Shown piece by piece: positions 1 through 4,949 of a stretch of 64,000 nucleotides of DNA; the first letter of the stretch is position 1, and every line of letters starts with the position of its first letter. Under the pieces are notes generated by a model. The model saw nothing but the letters and a program-made list of their open reading frames with translations. It was not told the origin of the DNA and did no database searches. Origin of the DNA: Patescibacteria group bacterium (GTDB lineage Bacteria > Patescibacteriota > Minisyncoccia > Phycocordibacterales > DATDWN01). The stretch lies in the NCBI GenBank assembly GCA_013816135.1, contig JACDEV010000002.1:33120-97119 (forward strand), written 5' to 3'. Position numbers and translations under genes: made by a program.

Positions 1-126
1 ATATACATATATAGTAGCAGGTTCTTCCCACATAGGGGTATTTCTAGGTGTCTGTCCTCTGTGAGAATGTGATGCTTTATCTTTCAAACCTTCATAAGCT
101 TCAGTTTCTACAATCATGAAAGACAT
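1..126 (-). CDS. DNA-3-methyladenine glycosylase (MPG/AAG family), N-terminal part; gene continues beyond window start
   Basis: Reverse-strand translation gives MSFMIVETEAYEGLKDKASHSHRGQTPRNTPMWEEPATIYVY, matching the conserved MPG-family motif (RIVETEAY...AH..RG.T.RN..MF...G..YVY). An in-frame stop lies just upstream of the first ATG. Confidence 0.6.
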   Translation of the reverse strand, partial: MSFMIVETEAYEGLKDKASHSHRGQTPRNTPMWEEPATIYVY

Positions 127-246
127 AATCTTATCTCTAGTCTTTCTTGTTAAATATTTTCCAATAAGATCTCTAGCTACTAAAACAGAATTCCTATTAA
201 AGAATTCTGGTTTTAGTATTCTCTTCATTTGTAAAATATCTAATTA

Positions 247-579
247 CTATTTCATACAAATTCCTCCAACATCTCCAAAAGGCAATTTAGATCCTGGTTC
301 AGGCTTACACTGATAACCAGCTATACAAGTTTTAGCTGTAGCTGTGTTTCCACCACAATGCTGTCCAGGTCCAGCAAAAGTTGAATATGTTGTTGTAGTG
401 CTAATAGTTGTAGTAGTAACTCCACCAGATGATGCAGAAGTATCGGTATTATTATTTGTATTCACAGTTGTGTCCGTATTATCCATTGTATCGGGAACAT
501 CATTTCTCATAAAGTAAAACGCTCCACCTAAAACTACTAAAACCGCTATTAATATAACTAAAATTTTATTTGTATTCAT
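247..579 (-). CDS. small secreted Thr-rich protein with N-terminal signal/TM segment and Cys-rich C-terminus (hypothetical)
   Basis: 110-aa ORF. Hydrophobic N-terminus (ILVILIAVLVVLGGAFYF), poly-Thr linker, and 4 Cys in the last 40 aa. Confidence 0.4.
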   Translation of the reverse strand: MNTNKILVILIAVLVVLGGAFYFMRNDVPDTMDNTDTTVNTNNNTDTSASSGGVTTTTISTTTTYSTFAGPGQHCGGNTATAKTCIAGYQCKPEPGSKLPFGDVGGICMK

Positions 580-650
580 ATTTTAAGTATATACCCCAAT
601 AAACTTTACGCAAGTAATTTTAACATTTAATTAATACAGTAATTTCTTTA

Positions 651-766
651 GATTTTTGTTTGAGTTCAAGGCGCGACGTTTTGTTTTTGACCAAGGTGTA
701 CATGCTAGTACTCCGCGGGAGAAAATGAAACTAGCAACGCAGAAATCGAACAAAAAAATAAGAAAT
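651..766 (-). repeat. conserved ~115-nt 3'-UTR element, copy A (second copy at 61071-61186, ~85% identical)
   Basis: Starts immediately after the lexA stop codon. Aligns base-for-base with 61071-61186 over its whole length. Contains the GTAC-N5/6-GTAC mini-hairpin and the CAACGCAGA block. Confidence 0.6.
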
Positions 767-1344
767 TAATACTTTCGTATTACACCTTTAACTATAGCTG
801 CAATCTTCAAATCATACTGAGGATATATCGGTGAATAGTTCTTATTAGCCGGTTTTAAATAAACTACATTCCCTTTCTTCTTGAAGTACTTCATTGTCCA
901 GCCACCATCAACTTCTGCAATAACAATATCTCCGTCCTTTGGGTTTCCTCGTCTCTCTACTAAAACCAAGTCACCTTCCTTAATCCCTTCGTCAATCATT
1001 GAATCACCTTTTACTTCCAAAAGATAAGTTGATTCTTTGTTCCCCACTAAGTATTCATTAATACTAAGAGTCTCGGAACTCATCTCGTCTACTGAGGTTG
1101 GAAATCCTGCTTCAACAAGTCCAAGTAAAGGAATCTCACCAAATATCTTCATGGGAGTAAGTTTACCGTTTGAGTCTTTATCTATGACCTCATCATCAAC
1201 AAGTTTATTAATCAATTTATAAACAGCGTTCTTGGACTTGAAACCAACAAGGGTCATGATCTCTTTGTAACCTGGCATCCTTCTATTTTTTCTATAGAAG
1301 GATAGAATCTTATTTTTGTAGTCAGAGTAGTTTTGATCACTCAT
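766..1344 (-). CDS. lexA: LexA repressor (S24 peptidase, SOS regulator)
   Basis: N-terminal wHTH followed by an S24 domain. Ala-Gly cleavage site (VEAGFP), GDSM catalytic Ser motif and a downstream Lys. Confidence 0.9.
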   Translation of the reverse strand: MSDQNYSDYKNKILSFYRKNRRMPGYKEIMTLVGFKSKNAVYKLINKLVDDEVIDKDSNGKLTPMKIFGEIPLLGLVEAGFPTSVDEMSSETLSINEYLVGNKESTYLLEVKGDSMIDEGIKEGDLVLVERRGNPKDGDIVIAEVDGGWTMKYFKKKGNVVYLKPANKNYSPIYPQYDLKIAAIVKGVIRKY

Positions 1345-1348
1345 ATAT

Positions 1349-1549
1349 TTATATTATTGAAAATGTACCAAATGACCTCATCATCCAGTTTGTTTGTGAA
1401 CGTCTTATGTTCGACAAACTCTGAAGAATGAACTTATGTCTTCTGGCTTCTTTTGAATAAGAAAGACCTTTGATAATCTTCTCATCAATCTGATCATTTA
1501 AAACTTCTAATTCCCTCCTCAATGCTCTTTCTAAATTTTGTTTGCTCAT
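1349..1549 (-). CDS. small hypothetical protein co-transcribed with lexA from the SOS promoter
   Basis: 66-aa ORF from the internal ATG (MSKQNLERALRRELEVLNDQ...). Sits 4 nt upstream of lexA on the same strand, directly downstream of the LexA-box promoter. No SD-like sequence in the ~22-nt region upstream of the ATG. Confidence 0.4.
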   Translation of the reverse strand: MSKQNLERALRRELEVLNDQIDEKIIKGLSYSKEARRHKFILQSLSNIRRSQTNWMMRSFGTFSII

Positions 1550-1577
1550 AATTTTTGGGCTAGATTTGTATACATTT

Positions 1578-1607
1578 ATTATAGGTGAACTGTAGTTCAC
1601 TAGTCAA
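1578..1607 (-). promoter_or_regulatory. sigma70-like promoter (TTGACT-N18-TATAAT) with embedded Cheo-type LexA box GTGAAC-TGTA-GTTCAC
   Basis: On the minus strand, -35 TTGACT is the reverse complement of 1602-1607 and -10 TATAAT of 1578-1583. The palindrome GAAC-N4-GTTC at 1587-1598 lies in the spacer, the classic arrangement for SOS operators of Gram-positive-type LexA. Confidence 0.65.
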
Positions 1608-1711
1608 CAAAATAACTGTGGATAGCGACATACAACCTAATTTAATTAAGAGGTCAATAATACTTGACACATTTTTAATATATGCTATCATTTTAAATGG
1701 AGGCAAAGGTA

Positions 1712-1927
1712 ATGCCAAATTTGGACAGTCAGCGTGCAAGACTCGTCCGTTATGGACGGAGCACGGGATTTCAATCCCAAAACGGCGTCATCAACATGAG
1801 CGCCGACCAGCTTCAGGCTTCAATGAAGCCGAGACTGATTCCGACGAAAACGGCCGTTCCGCCAACCTGGAACAGCCGTCGACGTGGAGCTTGGAGTTCG
1901 GATACGGATGGTAAGGATCAGAACTAG
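1712..1927 (+). CDS. small basic hypothetical protein in a GC-rich island
   Basis: SD GGAGG (1700-1704) 7 nt before the ATG. Preceded by TTGACA (1664-1669) with an extended -10-like TGCTATCAT. Followed by the hairpin AAAGGCCGTCGCAAGACGGCCTTT at ~1988-2013. Confidence 0.3.
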   Translation: MPNLDSQRARLVRYGRSTGFQSQNGVINMSADQLQASMKPRLIPTKTAVPPTWNSRRRGAWSSDTDGKDQN

Positions 1928-2073
1928 TTTGATCCGAAGTTCTAAAATCTCTCCCTCGTAAGACCCCGCAAGTCTCCCCCTCAAACAAAGGCCGTCGCAA
2001 GACGGCCTTTCCTCATATCTATAAGTTATTTTGAAAAAAAATTTATATATGCTAGATTTTCACTGGAGAAAAA

Positions 2074-2274
2074 ATGGGTACACCTTTTTCGATACCGAAA
2101 GTGAGCTTTCAAGAATTCAATAATGGGAAGAGTGTCTGCATAGTAGTAAGTGGCACGACCCCAGCAAAGAGTTCAACTGTGAAATGGTCGCATGGAAGTC
2201 ATCTAGGTACTGCCACAGTTGTCTGGGTCGAATTAACACAAGGTCGGCAAGAAGTTTGGGTAAGAAAAAACTGA
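2074..2274 (+). CDS. small hypothetical protein (66 aa) in a GC-rich island
   Basis: SD GGAG 6 nt before the ATG. A perfect hairpin terminator follows immediately. Confidence 0.35.
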   Translation: MGTPFSIPKVSFQEFNNGKSVCIVVSGTTPAKSSTVKWSHGSHLGTATVVWVELTQGRQEVWVRKN

Positions 2275-2279
2275 TTAGT

Positions 2280-2317
2280 AAAACCCGTTTTATACATTTA
2301 TGTATAAAACGGGTTTT
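2280..2317. terminator. perfect palindromic bidirectional rho-independent terminator
   Basis: AAACCCGTTTTATACATTTATGTATAAAACGGGTTTT: a 16-bp stem flanked by A-runs and T-runs on both sides. Confidence 0.7.
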
Positions 2318-2322
2318 GAATT

Positions 2323-2559
2323 TTATATGAACTTCAACTTCTCACTACGTGTGAGTTTTTTTATATTTGATTCTGCTTTAGAAGCAGTGGAACGATTCCG
2401 AAACTTTTTTGACCACACTAGCGAAACTGGTCGCCTGGCTTTCGTATATTTTGCTCCTTTTTTCGACAAATTATGTTCTTCTAATCTTCTTTTCAAATCA
2501 ACTGTTATACCTGTGTAGAGAGTTTCATCTGCACATTTTAGAATATATAGATAATACAT
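2323..2559 (-). CDS. GIY-YIG nuclease family protein (UPF0213-like)
   Basis: MYYLYILKCADETLYTGITVDLKRRLEEH is a canonical GIY-YIG motif. Start placed at the internal Met to avoid overlapping the upstream gene. Confidence 0.8.
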   Translation of the reverse strand: MYYLYILKCADETLYTGITVDLKRRLEEHNLSKKGAKYTKARRPVSLVWSKKFRNRSTASKAESNIKKLTRSEKLKFI

Positions 2560-2563
2560 CGAA

Positions 2564-3148
2564 TTAATGTCCTTGGGATTGCCAGACCTTGATAGACTCA
2601 ACAGGATGAACCAACATAATAATATTTAATGTCAGATTATCTCTTATCCAAAACAGACAACCAAGTTCCATAATTATAACTAAGAAAATTGAAACCCATA
2701 TTTTTGAAAACCGAGCGATATAAAATCCAACAGACATCATAAGAATATCTGATACGGAGTTCAATACACTATCCCCTACATACCCTTGAGAAATAGTGGC
2801 AGCCCGGTAGCGATCGATTATAAAGTGTGAGTTTTCCAAAAGTTCCCAGCCAGCTTCTAAAACCACTGCAATCAAAAATCTATATTTTACCGGTAATTTT
2901 CTTGCGAAGTAACGCAATACCGCATAAAAAATTATTCCGTGGATTATGTGAGAAAAAGAATAAGCATCTGCAAATCTTTGCGAGTTCTCACTCCCCCAGA
3001 TATTTCCATCCCACCATCCGAACATCCCATCTGGGCCGAGGAGTGACCTACCGCCGAAATATTCAATGCCTGCGACAAATACAGCTGTCAAAAGAAAACT
3101 AATTATCACAAATCGATTATTTTTTAAGTAATTTATAACTTTGTCCAT
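2564..3148 (-). CDS. DUF2585/UPF0314-like integral membrane protein
   Basis: Several TM helices. The conserved-looking SHIIHG and WELLEN blocks are recalled as typical of this family. Confidence 0.5.
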   Translation of the reverse strand: MDKVINYLKNNRFVIISFLLTAVFVAGIEYFGGRSLLGPDGMFGWWDGNIWGSENSQRFADAYSFSHIIHGIIFYAVLRYFARKLPVKYRFLIAVVLEAGWELLENSHFIIDRYRAATISQGYVGDSVLNSVSDILMMSVGFYIARFSKIWVSIFLVIIMELGCLFWIRDNLTLNIIMLVHPVESIKVWQSQGH

Positions 3149-3163
3149 TTACTAATTATACAC

Positions 3164-4852
3164 TCAATATTCTTCTACAAATAATCTTGCTAGTCTTATT
3201 TTCAGATAACTTGGTTTTTTCTTTTGCTTCAAAAGTAGATTATAAACCGGAGATAAGGTCATAGTTCCTGTTTTCTTGAAAGCTGAGATAATGTCATCTA
3301 GTTCGCTCCGTTTCAGTTCTCGTTTTAAGTAAGTTATATCTGGACACTTTTTCTCTGCTCTCAACTCCTCCACATGAGAAACAACTGTTTCTGCTTTCAA
3401 TCCTCTAGCATCGGCAATGTCTGATAATGGTACTTCCTGTTCAAGCATTCCCGCAGTGATCTCTTGAGTAGATTTTTTTACTTCTCTATTCTCTTCCTTT
3501 TCTTTTCTTTTTATCTTTAATTTTTCTTCTGGCTCAATTGATTTTATAAATTTCTGTTGGATCTCCTGAATATCTTTTTCCGAAAGCTCATTTAAGTCAG
3601 TGACCGCATCTACTGATAAATCCCGAAATCTTTGATCCATTTCTAAGACTTCTGGATCTACCTCCAGGGCTATATCGTTAAATCCCAAAAGCTTCATACC
3701 TCCAAGTGACCTTACACGTGAAAGAGCAACATATCCCATTCCTTTTACAAACGATTTGGAAAGGTCTACTTCCATAGCATCTAGTGACATTCCCTGACTC
3801 TTATGTACTGTAATAGCCCACGCTAACCTTAAGGGGTACTGTGTAATTTCCGCTTTAACTTTGCCTTCTTCTTCTACTTTCCAAGATTGGGGAGAAACAG
3901 ACAATTTCATGCCGTTAGTTGTTTCCACAATAGGATCACCAAAAGAATTAAAATCAGAAATTACTCCTAATGTTCCGTTTACATAAATACCTTCATTATG
4001 ATTTTTTGTAAACATAACACGAGCACCTTTTTTTAAAGTTAATACCTCAGGAGACAAACAACTTTTTTTTAAACTTTCCATTAGCCCAGATGAGCCTTTC
4101 CATGTCATGTTGTATTCTTTCTCATCACCCTTTATTAGATTAAGGTGTCTTTTGTTCACCACATCTACATCGATGTTGTGAGTATAAACTCTAGTTGCAA
4201 CTGCTCCTGATTCAGGATCTTTATTAAATCTGGTTTTCAAAAGCTCGATAGTTTTTTTAGTAACTTTGTTTTCGCGTATCTGATTCAAGATAGCAAGATA
4301 AGTATTATCCTTTTGGCGATGCTGTTCCGAGAGGTGACAAATGGTAAATTTTGAAGCTAACCAGCTTTCTGCTTTATAAGCAAACTCAGACTCAGCTGAC
4401 TCCCTTATGCCTCTAGTAACAGGCGGTAGTTGAAAAAAATCCCCACATAAAATAATCTGCATACCTCCGAATGGCCTTTCATTATGTTTCATTTGTCGGC
4501 ATATCCACTCTATGAGGTCTAGTCTGAAATGATGTAGCATTGAAACTTCATCAATTATCAAAACCTTAGTACGTTCAAATCTTTTATATAAATACTGTCT
4601 TTCCATCAAATCCTCAATGTCATAATCAGTCAGAATGTCTCTAACTCCCAAACCGGACCATGAATGTATAGTCATTCCACCCAAGTGTGTAGCAGCTATT
4701 CCTGTTGAAGCTGTGACAGCTACATCTACCGCATGAGATTTCAAATAATTTATATAGGAATTCAAAACATAAGTTTTTCCACTTCCCGCCGGGCCTGTCA
4801 AAAAAACATTTTTTCCCATTTTTAAAATATCTAATGCTTCAGATTGCAACAT
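3164..4852 (-). CDS. PIF1/RecD-like ATP-dependent DNA helicase
   Basis: Walker A LTGPAGSGKTYVL and Walker B VLIIDEVSML. SF1 helicase motifs with a RecD/Pif1-type arrangement. Confidence 0.8.
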   Translation of the reverse strand: MLQSEALDILKMGKNVFLTGPAGSGKTYVLNSYINYLKSHAVDVAVTASTGIAATHLGGMTIHSWSGLGVRDILTDYDIEDLMERQYLYKRFERTKVLIIDEVSMLHHFRLDLIEWICRQMKHNERPFGGMQIILCGDFFQLPPVTRGIRESAESEFAYKAESWLASKFTICHLSEQHRQKDNTYLAILNQIRENKVTKKTIELLKTRFNKDPESGAVATRVYTHNIDVDVVNKRHLNLIKGDEKEYNMTWKGSSGLMESLKKSCLSPEVLTLKKGARVMFTKNHNEGIYVNGTLGVISDFNSFGDPIVETTNGMKLSVSPQSWKVEEEGKVKAEITQYPLRLAWAITVHKSQGMSLDAMEVDLSKSFVKGMGYVALSRVRSLGGMKLLGFNDIALEVDPEVLEMDQRFRDLSVDAVTDLNELSEKDIQEIQQKFIKSIEPEEKLKIKRKEKEENREVKKSTQEITAGMLEQEVPLSDIADARGLKAETVVSHVEELRAEKKCPDITYLKRELKRSELDDIISAFKKTGTMTLSPVYNLLLKQKKKPSYLKIRLARLFVEEY

Positions 4853-4949
4853 GGTTTCATTCTACCAACCGGACTGTGTATAAGGATAGTTGACAGTCAA
4901 GTGTAAGTATTAGAAAATCCAACATTTACTCAGGCGATTTTTAAAGAAA

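What the first reader, a model, noticed from the sequence alone, without database searches (positions are those of the whole stretch)
1349..1607. SOS promoter with Cheo-type LexA box driving a small-protein/lexA operon
A consensus promoter (TTGACT-N18-TATAAT, minus strand) has the palindrome GTGAAC-TGTA-GTTCAC (GAAC-N4-GTTC, the Gram-positive-type LexA operator) exactly in its spacer. It transcribes a 66-aa ORF and then lexA 4 nt later. In many bacteria a small SOS-induced protein encoded next to lexA is a cell-division inhibitor (YneA/SulA analogues). This ORF, with a hydrophobic C-terminal tail, could be the equivalent in this lineage. No other GAAC-N4-GTTC box was seen near the helicase, GIY-YIG or dnaE genes in the window.
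Basis: partly seen in the sequence, partly recalled or inferred. Interest (0 to 1): 0.5.

Follow-up and report, generated by a model that had tools for sequence, protein, structure and literature searches.

The report
SOS lexA operon with small partner
In an uncultured Patescibacteria genome, the DNA-damage repressor LexA very probably shuts off its own promoter, and that promoter also makes a conserved 66-residue protein of unknown function that stays in one operon with lexA across its whole lineage.

Summary
On the minus strand, TTGACT (1607-1602), an 18-nt spacer and TATAAT (1583-1578) enclose the perfect palindrome GTGAAC-TACA-GTTCAC (1600-1585). A 66-aa ORF (1549-1349) follows, and lexA (1344-766) starts 4 nt after it.

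The design is strongly conserved. All 79 evaluable related genomes keep the palindrome arms while the central 4 nt vary freely. All 80 carry the small ORF next to lexA. The same operator also precedes umuD-like/Y-family polymerase operons in metagenomes, so it marks a regulon.

The small protein is really coding. It is a basic helical hairpin with a short hydrophobic C-terminus, no transmembrane segment and no detectable homologue of known function. The pair survives even where gene order is inverted (lexA then small ORF). It is therefore not a leader peptide.

The cell-division-inhibitor idea is plausible but untested. The defining features of the known inhibitor families are not met.

A DnaA-box consensus (TTATCCACA; CTATCCACA here, 1625-1617) lies upstream of the -35, at quantised spacings of about 0, 9 or 18 nt.

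Verdict: a known kind of circuit with a new, uncharacterised conserved partner.

The parts
1617..1625 (-). DnaA-box-like 9-mer CTATCCACA (8 of 9 matches to TTATCCACA), 9 nt upstream of the -35
   Evidence: A site with at most 1 mismatch is present in 80 of 80 evaluable loci, 58 of them perfect. The distance to the operator is quantised at 7-8, 13-17 or 24-26 nt. This was replicated in 74 independent metagenome promoters. Binding by DnaA is inferred from the consensus only.
1602..1607 (-). -35 hexamer TTGACT
   Evidence: TTGAC is conserved at this position in relatives.
1585..1600 (-). Presumed LexA operator, 16-bp palindrome GTGAAC-N4-GTTCAC filling the -35/-10 spacer
   Evidence: The arms are invariant and the N4 variable in 79 of 79 relatives. 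The same site precedes umuD-like/Y-family polymerase operons.
1578..1583 (-). -10 hexamer TATAAT
   Evidence: Relatives have TATAAT or TATACT 0-1 nt after the operator.
1349..1549 (-). Small ORF of 66 aa (stop included): a basic helical-hairpin protein, first cistron of the operon
   Evidence: Homologue next to lexA in 80 of 80 loci. Pairwise identity by codon position is 0.63/0.73/0.41. The AlphaFold2 model has two helices and pLDDT 85. The family has 334 representatives at 50% identity, none annotated.
766..1344 (-). lexA, 192 aa (stop included)
   Evidence: TIGR00498 at 120 bits against a cut-off of 111. Pfam Peptidase_S24, E = 1.8e-28. Full-length match to Thermotoga maritima LexA 3K2Z, E = 4.9e-21. 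Ala79-Gly80, Ser115 and Lys152 are present.
1664..1691 (+). Divergent promoter-like site TTGACA-16-TATCAT with TG upstream. It shares the intergenic region with the SOS promoter but has no LexA box.
1712..1927 (+). Divergent GC-rich 71-aa ORF (Shine-Dalgarno GGAGG at 1699-1703). A neighbour, not shown to belong to the SOS unit.
   Evidence: 55% GC against about 33% in the surroundings. No Rfam family. Called as a gene in a second assembly. Positional counterparts share short motifs in L001, L009, L011, L013 and L014. Only self-hits in the protein database.

Best explanation
This is the autoregulated SOS operon of a Parcubacteria-type (Patescibacteria) bacterium.

How it most likely works:
1. 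A LexA dimer binds the 16-bp palindrome GTGAAC-N4-GTTCAC, which fills the spacer of a near-consensus sigma-70-type promoter. This blocks RNA polymerase (inferred).
2. After DNA damage, RecA-stimulated self-cleavage of LexA at Ala79-Gly80 frees the promoter (inferred from conserved residues).
3. One transcript then yields a 66-aa basic helical-hairpin protein and new LexA. The new LexA resets the switch.

The small protein is a real protein under purifying selection. It is kept in one LexA-controlled operon with lexA in either gene order (shown). Its function is unknown. The reading I favour (about 0.35) is a damage-induced checkpoint effector that binds a partner protein of cell division or replication. 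Its invariably hydrophobic C-terminus would serve for membrane contact or rapid proteolysis.

A conserved TTATCCACA site sits at fixed steps upstream of the -35. It probably adds an input from DnaA (about 0.55).
For: Promoter and operator geometry:
- Read from the sequence.
- In 79 of 79 evaluable related genomes the palindrome arms are invariant while the central 4 nt vary, always between TTGAC and TATAAT/TATACT.
- More distant family members show the same layout.

Regulon evidence from 120 metagenome loci carrying operator plus -10:
- 88 precede lexA: 63 through the small ORF and 25 directly.
- 5 precede umuD-like or Y-family polymerase genes.

LexA identity and catalytic residues.

Operon structure:
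- The gap between the genes is 1-12 nt in most loci.
- No second operator lies in the longer gaps.
- No promoter-like site on this strand lies inside the small ORF.

The small ORF is a protein:
- Third codon positions are the least conserved.
- Nine residues are invariant.
- The AlphaFold2 hairpin is confident.

The pair is kept when the order is inverted: lexA comes first and the small ORF second in L094 and L120.

Some related LexA loci of 6.8-13 kb lack the small ORF nearby. LexA therefore does not strictly need it, which fits an effector better than an obligate cofactor.

Protein properties: the C-terminal residue is hydrophobic in 78 of 80, and mean net charge is +7.75.

Precedent: genes next to lexA that share its operator encode division inhibitors in Firmicutes and Actinobacteria (PMC6851548).

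DnaA-like site:
-.
- A pair of such 9-mers 2 nt apart lies upstream of rpoB.
- An 8-of-9 site lies upstream of nrdAB.
- DnaA and LexA co-regulate uvrB and recN in E. coli (PMC8203912).
Against: - No binding or expression data exist. LexA binding is inferred from motif type and position.
- Only about 84 kb of this genome could be scanned, and it holds no second operator. The regulon evidence comes from unassigned metagenome contigs.
- Against the checkpoint reading: there is no transmembrane segment, LysM or SulA similarity. The amphipathic signal of the tail is weak (mean z 0.74). The gene is co-transcribed with lexA, so it is made at basal level all the time. The strong positive charge would also suit nucleic-acid binding.
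- Structure search gives only generic helical hairpins.
- The TTATCCACA site is also common at other promoters of these genomes. It may therefore belong to another global factor. No oriC or dnaA region of this lineage could be inspected.
Confidence: 0.55

Rival explanations
1. The small protein is an accessory of the LexA/RecA switch itself. It would bind LexA or RecA and tune operator binding or self-cleavage. Phage GIL01 gp7 does this for Bacillus LexA, and DinI and RecX do it for RecA (own knowledge).
For: - The pairing with lexA is unbroken across the whole detectable family: 80 of 80 genomes, plus the distant members P0147, P0223 and P0211 (P0215 is followed by an unannotated 176-aa gene cut by the contig end).
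- The pairing survives gene-order inversion.
- The tight 1-12 nt spacing suggests matched production.
- Conserved polar residues on both helices suggest a specific protein interface.
- The protein never occurs fused or alone in the loci examined.
Against: - Several related lexA loci of 6.8-13 kb have no copy nearby, so LexA works without it.
- 25 of 120 operator-bearing promoters drive lexA alone.
- There is no similarity to any known LexA or RecA modulator.
- A complex prediction could not be run with the tools available.
Confidence: 0.28
2. The small protein is a damage-induced nucleic-acid-binding protein. For example it could coat or protect DNA, or act on RNA. It would not be a regulator of division or of LexA.
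For: - Mean net charge is +7.75.
- An Arg-His pair (R37, H38) is invariant and K39 nearly so, in the usual RRHK stretch on helix 2.
- There is no membrane segment.
Against: - A two-helix hairpin is not a recognised DNA-binding fold, and no structural match supports this reading.
- It does not explain the conserved hydrophobic C-terminus.
Confidence: 0.12
3. The small ORF is only a leader or upstream ORF. Its translation would set lexA translation, and the peptide itself would have no function.
For: - A 4-nt gap separates the genes and there is no Shine-Dalgarno sequence before lexA.
- The small ORF comes first in most loci.
Against: - There is strong amino-acid-level selection, with nine invariant residues.
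- Eight loci have gaps of 130-540 nt, three with a further small ORF (L068, L077, L078) and several with an inserted element.
- In L094 and L120 the small ORF lies downstream of lexA.
Confidence: 0.03
4. The palindrome is the operator of a regulator other than LexA.
For: No direct binding data exist. No second site lies in the 84 kb of this genome that could be read.
Against: - The half-sites and spacing equal the LexA box core of Gram-positive bacteria (established knowledge).
- The palindrome sits in the lexA promoter in every relative.
- It also precedes translesion-polymerase operons, the classic SOS targets.
Confidence: 0.05

Closest known systems
Autoregulated lexA (dinR) of Bacillus subtilis and other Gram-positive bacteria, with the Cheo box CGAAC-N4-GTTCG
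   Same: It has the same GAAC-N4-GTTC palindrome core. The operator overlaps the core promoter of lexA itself. LexA has a winged-helix N-terminal domain plus an S24 domain with Ala-Gly, Ser and Lys.
   Different: The flanking bases are T/A (GTGAAC...GTTCAC), not C/G. There is a single site exactly filling the spacer. lexA is usually the second cistron, after a small ORF. Some relatives are leaderless.
Patescibacteria SOS network described by Sanchez-Osuna, Barbe and Erill (Environ Microbiol 2017, 19:3465)
   Same: The same superphylum and the same regulator. The paper exists and is cited in PMC8565304 and PMC7739468.
   Different: The paper is not in the library. I could not check whether this motif, the small ORF or the TTATCCACA site are reported there. 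My recollection of its content is not evidence.
SOS division inhibitors encoded next to lexA: YneA, SosA, DivS, ChiZ
   Same: A small gene adjacent to lexA and, by inference, under the same LexA operator. As in that group, the sequence is unrelated to the others in it (PMC6851548).
   Different: Those genes are divergent from lexA. Their products have one membrane-spanning segment, an extracellular C-terminus and often LysM. This gene is co-directional and its product is soluble, basic and all-helical.
lexA-sulA operon of Pseudomonas (own knowledge, not checked here)
   Same: An effector is co-transcribed with lexA from the LexA-repressed promoter. The lexA-first order is seen here in L094 and L120.
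   Different: There is no SulA similarity. The usual order here is effector first.
E. coli uvrB and recN promoters, co-regulated by DnaA and LexA
   Same: A DnaA-box consensus and a LexA box lie in one promoter region (PMC8203912).
   Different: Here the promoter is that of lexA itself. The site is conserved across a whole lineage, at stepped spacings of 0, 9 or 18 nt from the -35.
Sda of Bacillus subtilis, a 46-aa replication checkpoint protein
   Same: Both are small helical hairpins whose gene has DnaA boxes in its promoter (PMC8203912; fold).
   Different: Sda targets sporulation kinases (PMC8203912); I did not check whether this lineage has them.

Membership tests
LexA repressor (TIGR00498) | Full-length match above the curated cut-off | tested here: met
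   120.4 bits against a cut-off of 110.95, residues 18-191. Full-length alignment to LexA 3K2Z, E = 4.9e-21.
LexA repressor (TIGR00498) | Self-cleavage site Ala-Gly and catalytic Ser/Lys dyad | tested here: met
   Ala79-Gly80 (VEAGFP), Ser115 (GDSM), Lys152 (TMKYF). EAG(I/F)P occurs in 78 of 81 sequences, G(D/E)SM in 81 of 81 and the TMK motif in 80 of 81.
LexA repressor (TIGR00498) | Pfam LexA_DNA_bind N-terminal domain | tested here: inconclusive
   No Pfam hit for residues 1-70. However, the TIGR00498 and 3K2Z alignments extend into this region.
Gram-positive-type LexA operator (Cheo box) | Palindrome GAAC-N4-GTTC in the promoter of an SOS gene | tested here: met
   Site at 1585-1600. Conserved in 79 of 79 relatives.
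Gram-positive-type LexA operator (Cheo box) | C/G flanks (CGAAC...GTTCG) | tested here: not met
   The flanks are T/A (GTGAAC...GTTCAC) in the window and in 79 of the 80 aligned promoters; L031 has one arm mismatch.
Gram-positive-type LexA operator (Cheo box) | Occurs at several damage-response operons (a regulon) | tested here: met
   The same operator precedes umuD-like plus Y-family polymerase operons (L122, L169), further UmuD-like genes (L164, L187) and a Y-family polymerase gene (L124). No second site lies in this genome's 84 kb.
Gram-positive-type LexA operator (Cheo box) | Bound by LexA | not testable with these tools
   Needs a gel-shift or footprint assay.
YneA/SosA/DivS/ChiZ-type SOS division inhibitors | Gene adjacent to lexA and under a LexA box | tested here: met
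   Features as listed in PMC6851548.
YneA/SosA/DivS/ChiZ-type SOS division inhibitors | Divergently transcribed from lexA | tested here: not met
   Same strand and same operon in every locus.
YneA/SosA/DivS/ChiZ-type SOS division inhibitors | Single membrane-spanning segment with extracellular C-terminus | tested here: not met
   The maximum 19-residue Kyte-Doolittle mean is 1.16 (threshold about 1.6) in 80 of 80.
YneA/SosA/DivS/ChiZ-type SOS division inhibitors | LysM domain (YneA, ChiZ) | tested here: not met
   No Pfam hit apart from a chance-level DUF4695 match at E = 0.038.
YneA/SosA/DivS/ChiZ-type SOS division inhibitors | Blocks cell division when induced | not testable with these tools
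   Needs expression experiments.
SulA | Sequence match to the SulA family | tested here: not met
   No Pfam or NCBIfam match. The fold is a two-helix hairpin.
DnaA box | 9-mer matching TTATCCACA / TTWTNCACA | tested here: met
   CTATCCACA at 1625-1617 (8 of 9). A perfect match in 58 of 80 relatives, and at most 1 mismatch in all.
DnaA box | Present at classic DnaA targets or origin of the same lineage | tested here: inconclusive
   An 8-of-9 site lies upstream of nrdAB (chance about 0.05, my own estimate). A pair of 9-mers 2 nt apart lies upstream of rpoB. No dnaA or oriC region was available.
DnaA box | Bound by DnaA | not testable with these tools
   Needs binding assays.
Sda-like checkpoint proteins | Sequence homology to Sda | tested here: not met

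The most novel reading that the evidence does not exclude
The small protein founds a new family of SOS checkpoint effectors specific to Parcubacteria-type Patescibacteria. It would be soluble, helical and unrelated to SulA, YneA, SosA or SidA. Its operon with lexA would integrate two signals at one promoter: DNA damage through LexA and replication status through DnaA.
Probability: 0.25. Interest if true: 0.7.

Novelty: new variant of a known kind. Interest (0 to 1): 0.5.

Why it matters
Patescibacteria are mostly uncultured bacteria with tiny genomes and few regulators, and how they control their cell cycle is unknown.

A LexA-repressed lexA promoter is expected. Two things are not:
- A small protein stays in the lexA operon across hundreds of lineages, in either gene order.
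- A DnaA-type site is locked at stepped distances from the same promoter.

If the small protein is the damage checkpoint effector, it would be a new solution to a problem that bacteria have solved several times with unrelated proteins. If it tunes LexA, it would be a chromosomal counterpart of phage-encoded LexA modulators.

Both readings can be tested with a 66-residue protein and a 50-bp promoter.

Tried and rejected
What led nowhere, and what I considered and rejected:

- **GC-rich block 1700-2030 as a structured RNA.** I first suspected one immediately upstream. Rfam found nothing at gathering or at E up to 10, and ARAGORN found nothing. Both strands fold better than shuffles (z -3.9 and -4.4). 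However, relatives show a promoter, a Shine-Dalgarno sequence and an ORF of similar length at the same place. I now read it as a small GC-rich gene. It has no LexA box.
- **Homology of the small protein.** Pfam, NCBIfam, PADLOC, PHROGs, PDB sequences and Foldseek against PDB gave nothing significant. AFDB50 was not available.
- **Viral contigs.** There is no copy of the small protein, so a prophage origin is not supported.
- **Sda.** No homology.
- **dnaA, recA, uvrA and ftsZ motif searches.** None found in the window or the 80 loci. The DnaA-box identity could therefore not be checked against an origin.
- **Second operators.** A search of 472 kb of flanking DNA found none with at most 1 mismatch.
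- **The 2017 Patescibacteria SOS paper.** It could not be read.
- **Membrane-targeting helix.** The idea that the C-terminal tail is one got only weak support.

Full report
**1.

Read on the minus strand, the region is CTATCCACA (1625-1617), 9 nt, TTGACT (1607-1602), A, GTGAAC-TACA-GTTCAC (1600-1585), C, TATAAT (1583-1578). A leader of about 22 nt follows (assuming a start about 7 nt after the -10). ATG at 1549 opens a 66-codon ORF that stops at 1351-1349. Four nt later, ATG at 1344 opens a 192-codon gene ending at 766.

The promoter matches the consensus at 11 of 12 positions and is the best such site in 1-3200. The 12-nt core GAAC-N4-GTTC alone is only mildly unusual: 3 in the window against 0.74 expected. 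The 16-bp palindrome is unique in the window. All other matches need at least 2 mismatches, and such matches are no commoner than in shuffled sequence. The two other core matches (14966, 22554) fall within listed ORFs and lack the flanks.

**2. The second gene is lexA**

- It passes the NCBIfam LexA equivalog model (120.4 bits against a cut-off of 110.95).
- It has the Peptidase_S24 domain.
- It aligns over its full length with Thermotoga maritima LexA (3K2Z, E = 4.9e-21).
- It keeps Ala79-Gly80, Ser115 and Lys152, as do its relatives.

The organism is a member of the Patescibacteria, Parcubacteria group. The small protein is identical to MBA3732894.1, a 'hypothetical protein' from a Patescibacteria group bacterium. 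The closest lexA loci are labelled Zambryskibacteria, Paceibacterota, Taylorbacteria and similar.

**3. Conservation of the regulatory design**

I fetched 80 lexA loci from different species (LexA identity 63-87%).

- *Small ORF.* A homologue lies just upstream of lexA in 80 of 80.
- *Operator.* One locus is cut off. Of the other 79, 78 have a perfect GAAC-N4-GTTC upstream of the small ORF and one has a single mismatch.
- *Alignment on the palindrome.* The consensus is TTGAC-n-gGTGAAC-NNNN-GTTCAC-y-TATA(A/C)T. The two arms are invariant and the four central bases vary freely. That pattern is the signature of a dimeric repressor site.
- *Specificity.* No further site with at most 1 mismatch occurs in the 472 kb of flanking DNA.
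- *Leaderless relatives.* In nine loci the ATG follows the -10 by about 7 nt, which implies a leaderless transcript.

**4. Evidence for a regulon**

I scanned the metagenome collection for the operator plus the start of the -10. Classification:

| Downstream of the operator | Loci |
|---|---|
| Small ORF (60 followed by an S24/LexA gene, 3 cut by the contig end) | 63 |
| lexA directly, commonly with the ATG 29 nt after the operator start (implying a leaderless transcript) | 25 |
| UmuD-like gene | 4 |
| Y-family polymerase gene | 1 |
| Cut by the contig end | 10 |
| Other; most lack a TTATCCACA-like site upstream, and about half of those I inspected lack a -35, so many are probably chance | 17 |

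Two of the UmuD-like genes are followed by a Y-family polymerase (L122, L169). Translesion polymerases are the classic SOS targets. This supports the reading that the palindrome is the LexA box, although the contigs are not assigned to organisms.

**5. The small protein**

- *It is coding.* Pairwise identity over the first 45 codons is 0.63, 0.73 and 0.41 for codon positions 1, 2 and 3.
- *Conserved residues.* Nine residues are invariant among 71 homologues: E13, N18, I21, D22, G28, Y31, E34, R37, H38.
- *Fold.* AlphaFold2 gives a two-helix hairpin (3-27 and 32-60) with mean pLDDT 85. Confidence is high to residue 50 and low in the tail.
- *Physical properties.* No transmembrane segment, mean net charge +7.75, and a hydrophobic last residue in 78 of 80.
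- *Family size.* A profile search of 1.8 billion representatives finds 334 clusters at 50% identity. All of the 150 listed are small and none shows a fused domain.
- *No known relatives.* Pfam, NCBIfam, PADLOC, PHROGs, PDB sequences and Foldseek against PDB give nothing significant. Public records that carry a name call it 'hypothetical'. It is absent from viral contigs.

**6. The pairing with lexA**

- P0147, P0223 and P0211, among the weaker of the 150 listed matches, again sit immediately before an S24 gene of LexA size. P0215 is followed by an unannotated 176-aa gene cut by the contig end. In one case the order is small ORF, lexA, umuD-like, umuC-like. They have the same promoter layout.
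- Eight loci have gaps of 130-540 nt between the two genes. Three hold a further small ORF, and several hold a copy of the inserted element noted under 'noticed in passing'. None contains a second operator.
- In L094 and L120 the order is inverted. The promoter drives lexA first, and the small ORF follows 24 nt or less downstream.
- Four related lexA loci of 6.8-13 kb show no copy at all.

These facts exclude a mere leader peptide. They show selection for co-transcription with lexA under LexA control, and they show that LexA can do without the small protein.

**7. What the small protein does is not shown**

In Firmicutes and Actinobacteria, unrelated small genes next to lexA and under its operator encode the SOS division inhibitors (PMC6851548). 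The features that define that group are absent here: divergent orientation, one membrane-spanning segment, an extracellular C-terminus and often LysM. Membership is therefore rejected, while the functional analogy stays open.

The main rival is a modulator of LexA or RecA. The unbroken pairing favours it, and the lexA loci without the gene count against it. I rate the options as follows:

| Reading | Probability |
|---|---|
| Checkpoint effector | about 0.35 |
| LexA/RecA accessory | about 0.28 |
| Nucleic-acid binding | about 0.12 |
| Leader peptide | about 0.03 |
| Something not considered | the rest |

**8.

The 9-mer TTATCCACA is the DnaA-box consensus (PMC8203912). It lies upstream of the -35 in all 80 evaluable loci with at most one mismatch, and 58 are perfect. 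The window has CTATCCACA.

Its distance to the operator is quantised:

| Distance to the operator (nt) | Genome loci | Independent metagenome promoters |
|---|---|---|
| 5-8 (7-8 in the genome loci) | 12 | 5 |
| 9-12 | 0 | 0 |
| 13-17 | 47 | 63 |
| 18-23 | 0 | 0 |
| 24-27 (24-26 in the genome loci) | 21 | 6 |

These classes correspond to about 0, 9 or 18 nt from the -35.

The core 8-mer TATCCACA occurs 66 times in these promoters. About 7 per strand are expected by composition in the whole 472 kb.

The motif also occurs at other promoters:
- A pair of 9-mers 2 nt apart lies upstream of rpoB in this genome and in eight relatives.
- An 8-of-9 copy lies upstream of nrdAB.
- TTATACACA lies upstream of the PIF1-type helicase gene.

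DnaA and LexA are known to co-regulate uvrB and recN in E. coli. No paper in the library links a DnaA box to a lexA promoter. I could not inspect a dnaA or oriC region of this lineage. The assignment to DnaA therefore rests on the consensus alone, and I put it at about 0.55.

**9. Surroundings**

- *Upstream and divergent.* A 71-aa GC-rich ORF (1712-1927, 55% GC in a 33% GC context) has its own promoter and a Shine-Dalgarno sequence but no LexA box. It is called as a gene in a second assembly. It has only itself as a database hit. Positional counterparts in close relatives share short motifs. It occupies the position that division-inhibitor genes hold in Gram-positive bacteria, but nothing links it to LexA.
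- *Downstream of lexA, same strand.* A small secreted-looking protein, 3-methyladenine glycosylase, an Ogt-like methyltransferase domain and an EVE-domain protein, followed by rpoB, rpoC and dnaG. Ogt follows lexA on the same strand in 23 of 80 loci. No clear terminator follows lexA on this strand, so read-through is possible but untested.

**10. Verdict**

The sequence observation is confirmed and is far beyond chance once relatives are considered. The circuit is a known kind: a LexA-repressed lexA promoter with a Gram-positive-type box. An SOS study of Patescibacteria exists (Environ Microbiol 2017, 19:3465), but I could not read it.

Three things appear new, as far as I could check:
- the conserved, uncharacterised small protein kept in the lexA operon;
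- its occurrence in both gene orders;
- the phase-locked DnaA-type site.

Interest is moderate at 0.5. I class it as a new variant of a known kind.

Noticed in passing
window 1617-1625 (-); L001-L087; L091-L210: The DnaA-box consensus TTATCCACA is conserved upstream of the -35 of the lexA operon. At most 1 mismatch in 80 of 80 loci. Spacing to the operator is quantised at 7-8, 13-17 or 24-26 nt, and this was replicated in an independent metagenome set.
   Followed up: yes
window 1712-1927 (+), promoter 1664-1691: A divergent 71-aa ORF with 55% GC in a 33% GC genome. It has a strong Shine-Dalgarno sequence and a terminator-like hairpin. There is no Rfam or Pfam match and only a self-hit in the protein database. 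GC-rich (60-76%) positional counterparts with shared short motifs (GFQ; PW.DP.VP.L..FS; AWSS[DE]) occur in L001, L009, L011, L013 and L014. Both strands also fold better than shuffles (z about -4).
   Followed up: partly
window 2074-2274 (+) and hairpin 2279-2318: A second orphan 66-aa ORF, called as a gene in another assembly. It is followed by an 18-bp perfect hairpin that can serve as a terminator for either strand. No family match.
   Followed up: no
L088 13037 (-), same genome about 3 kb beyond the window start; also L001, L002, L004, L007, L011, L015, L023, L027: TTATCCACA, 2 nt, then a weaker 9-mer (CTACTCACA or CTATTCACA), flanked by TTGAC-type -35 elements on both strands. In this genome the element lies in the intergenic region upstream of rpoB-rpoC.
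   Followed up: partly
window 60416-60424 (-): TTATCCACT (8 of 9) lies in the intergenic region upstream of nrdA-nrdB (ribonucleotide reductase). nrdAB is a classic DnaA-regulated operon in E. coli (own knowledge). There is no LexA box here.
   Followed up: partly
window 4875-4883 (-): TTATACACA lies 10 nt upstream of an extended -10 (TGGTAGAAT) in front of the PIF1-type helicase / DUF2585 / GIY-YIG gene cluster. A site there could be repressive.
   Followed up: no
L094 and L120 (metagenome loci): Inverted gene order: the same promoter drives a leaderless lexA, and the small-protein homologue follows immediately downstream. The L120 copy is only 46 aa.
   Followed up: yes
L068, L077, L078, between the small ORF and lexA: An additional conserved small ORF of about 54-58 aa (motif ILYSxxGFxKFRxxFGD) is inserted in the operon. 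No Pfam match.
   Followed up: partly
L008, L016, L027, L044 (5' leader); L027, L051, L078 (gap before lexA): A recurrent inserted element of about 130 nt (…GGCTCGAAT…CGCCTCGAACTGCA…) lies between the promoter and the small ORF, or between the small ORF and lexA. It could be a mobile element or an RNA motif. L039 and L073 also have leaders of about 160-190 nt, but with different sequence.
   Followed up: no
5' leaders of L004, L011, L013, L014, L021, L022, L025, L026 and others: A conserved ACCAGGGTTTA motif lies about 25-35 nt upstream of the small-ORF ATG. It is absent from the window.
   Followed up: no
L088 10001-12927 (downstream of lexA, same strand); L081-L083; L066; L085: DNA-repair and modification genes follow lexA: Mpg, an Ogt-like domain (in 23 of 80 loci) and an EVE-domain protein in this genome; umuD-like plus umuC-like genes in L081-L083; a Y-family polymerase motif in L066; a Dam-like methyltransferase in L085. 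Read-through from the SOS promoter is possible.
   Followed up: partly
L145, L096 (metagenome loci): The operator plus -10 lies in front of large N6-adenine methyltransferase-like genes (NPPY/NPPF motifs). L145 also has a perfect TTATCCACA. These may be further LexA targets or chance matches.
   Followed up: no
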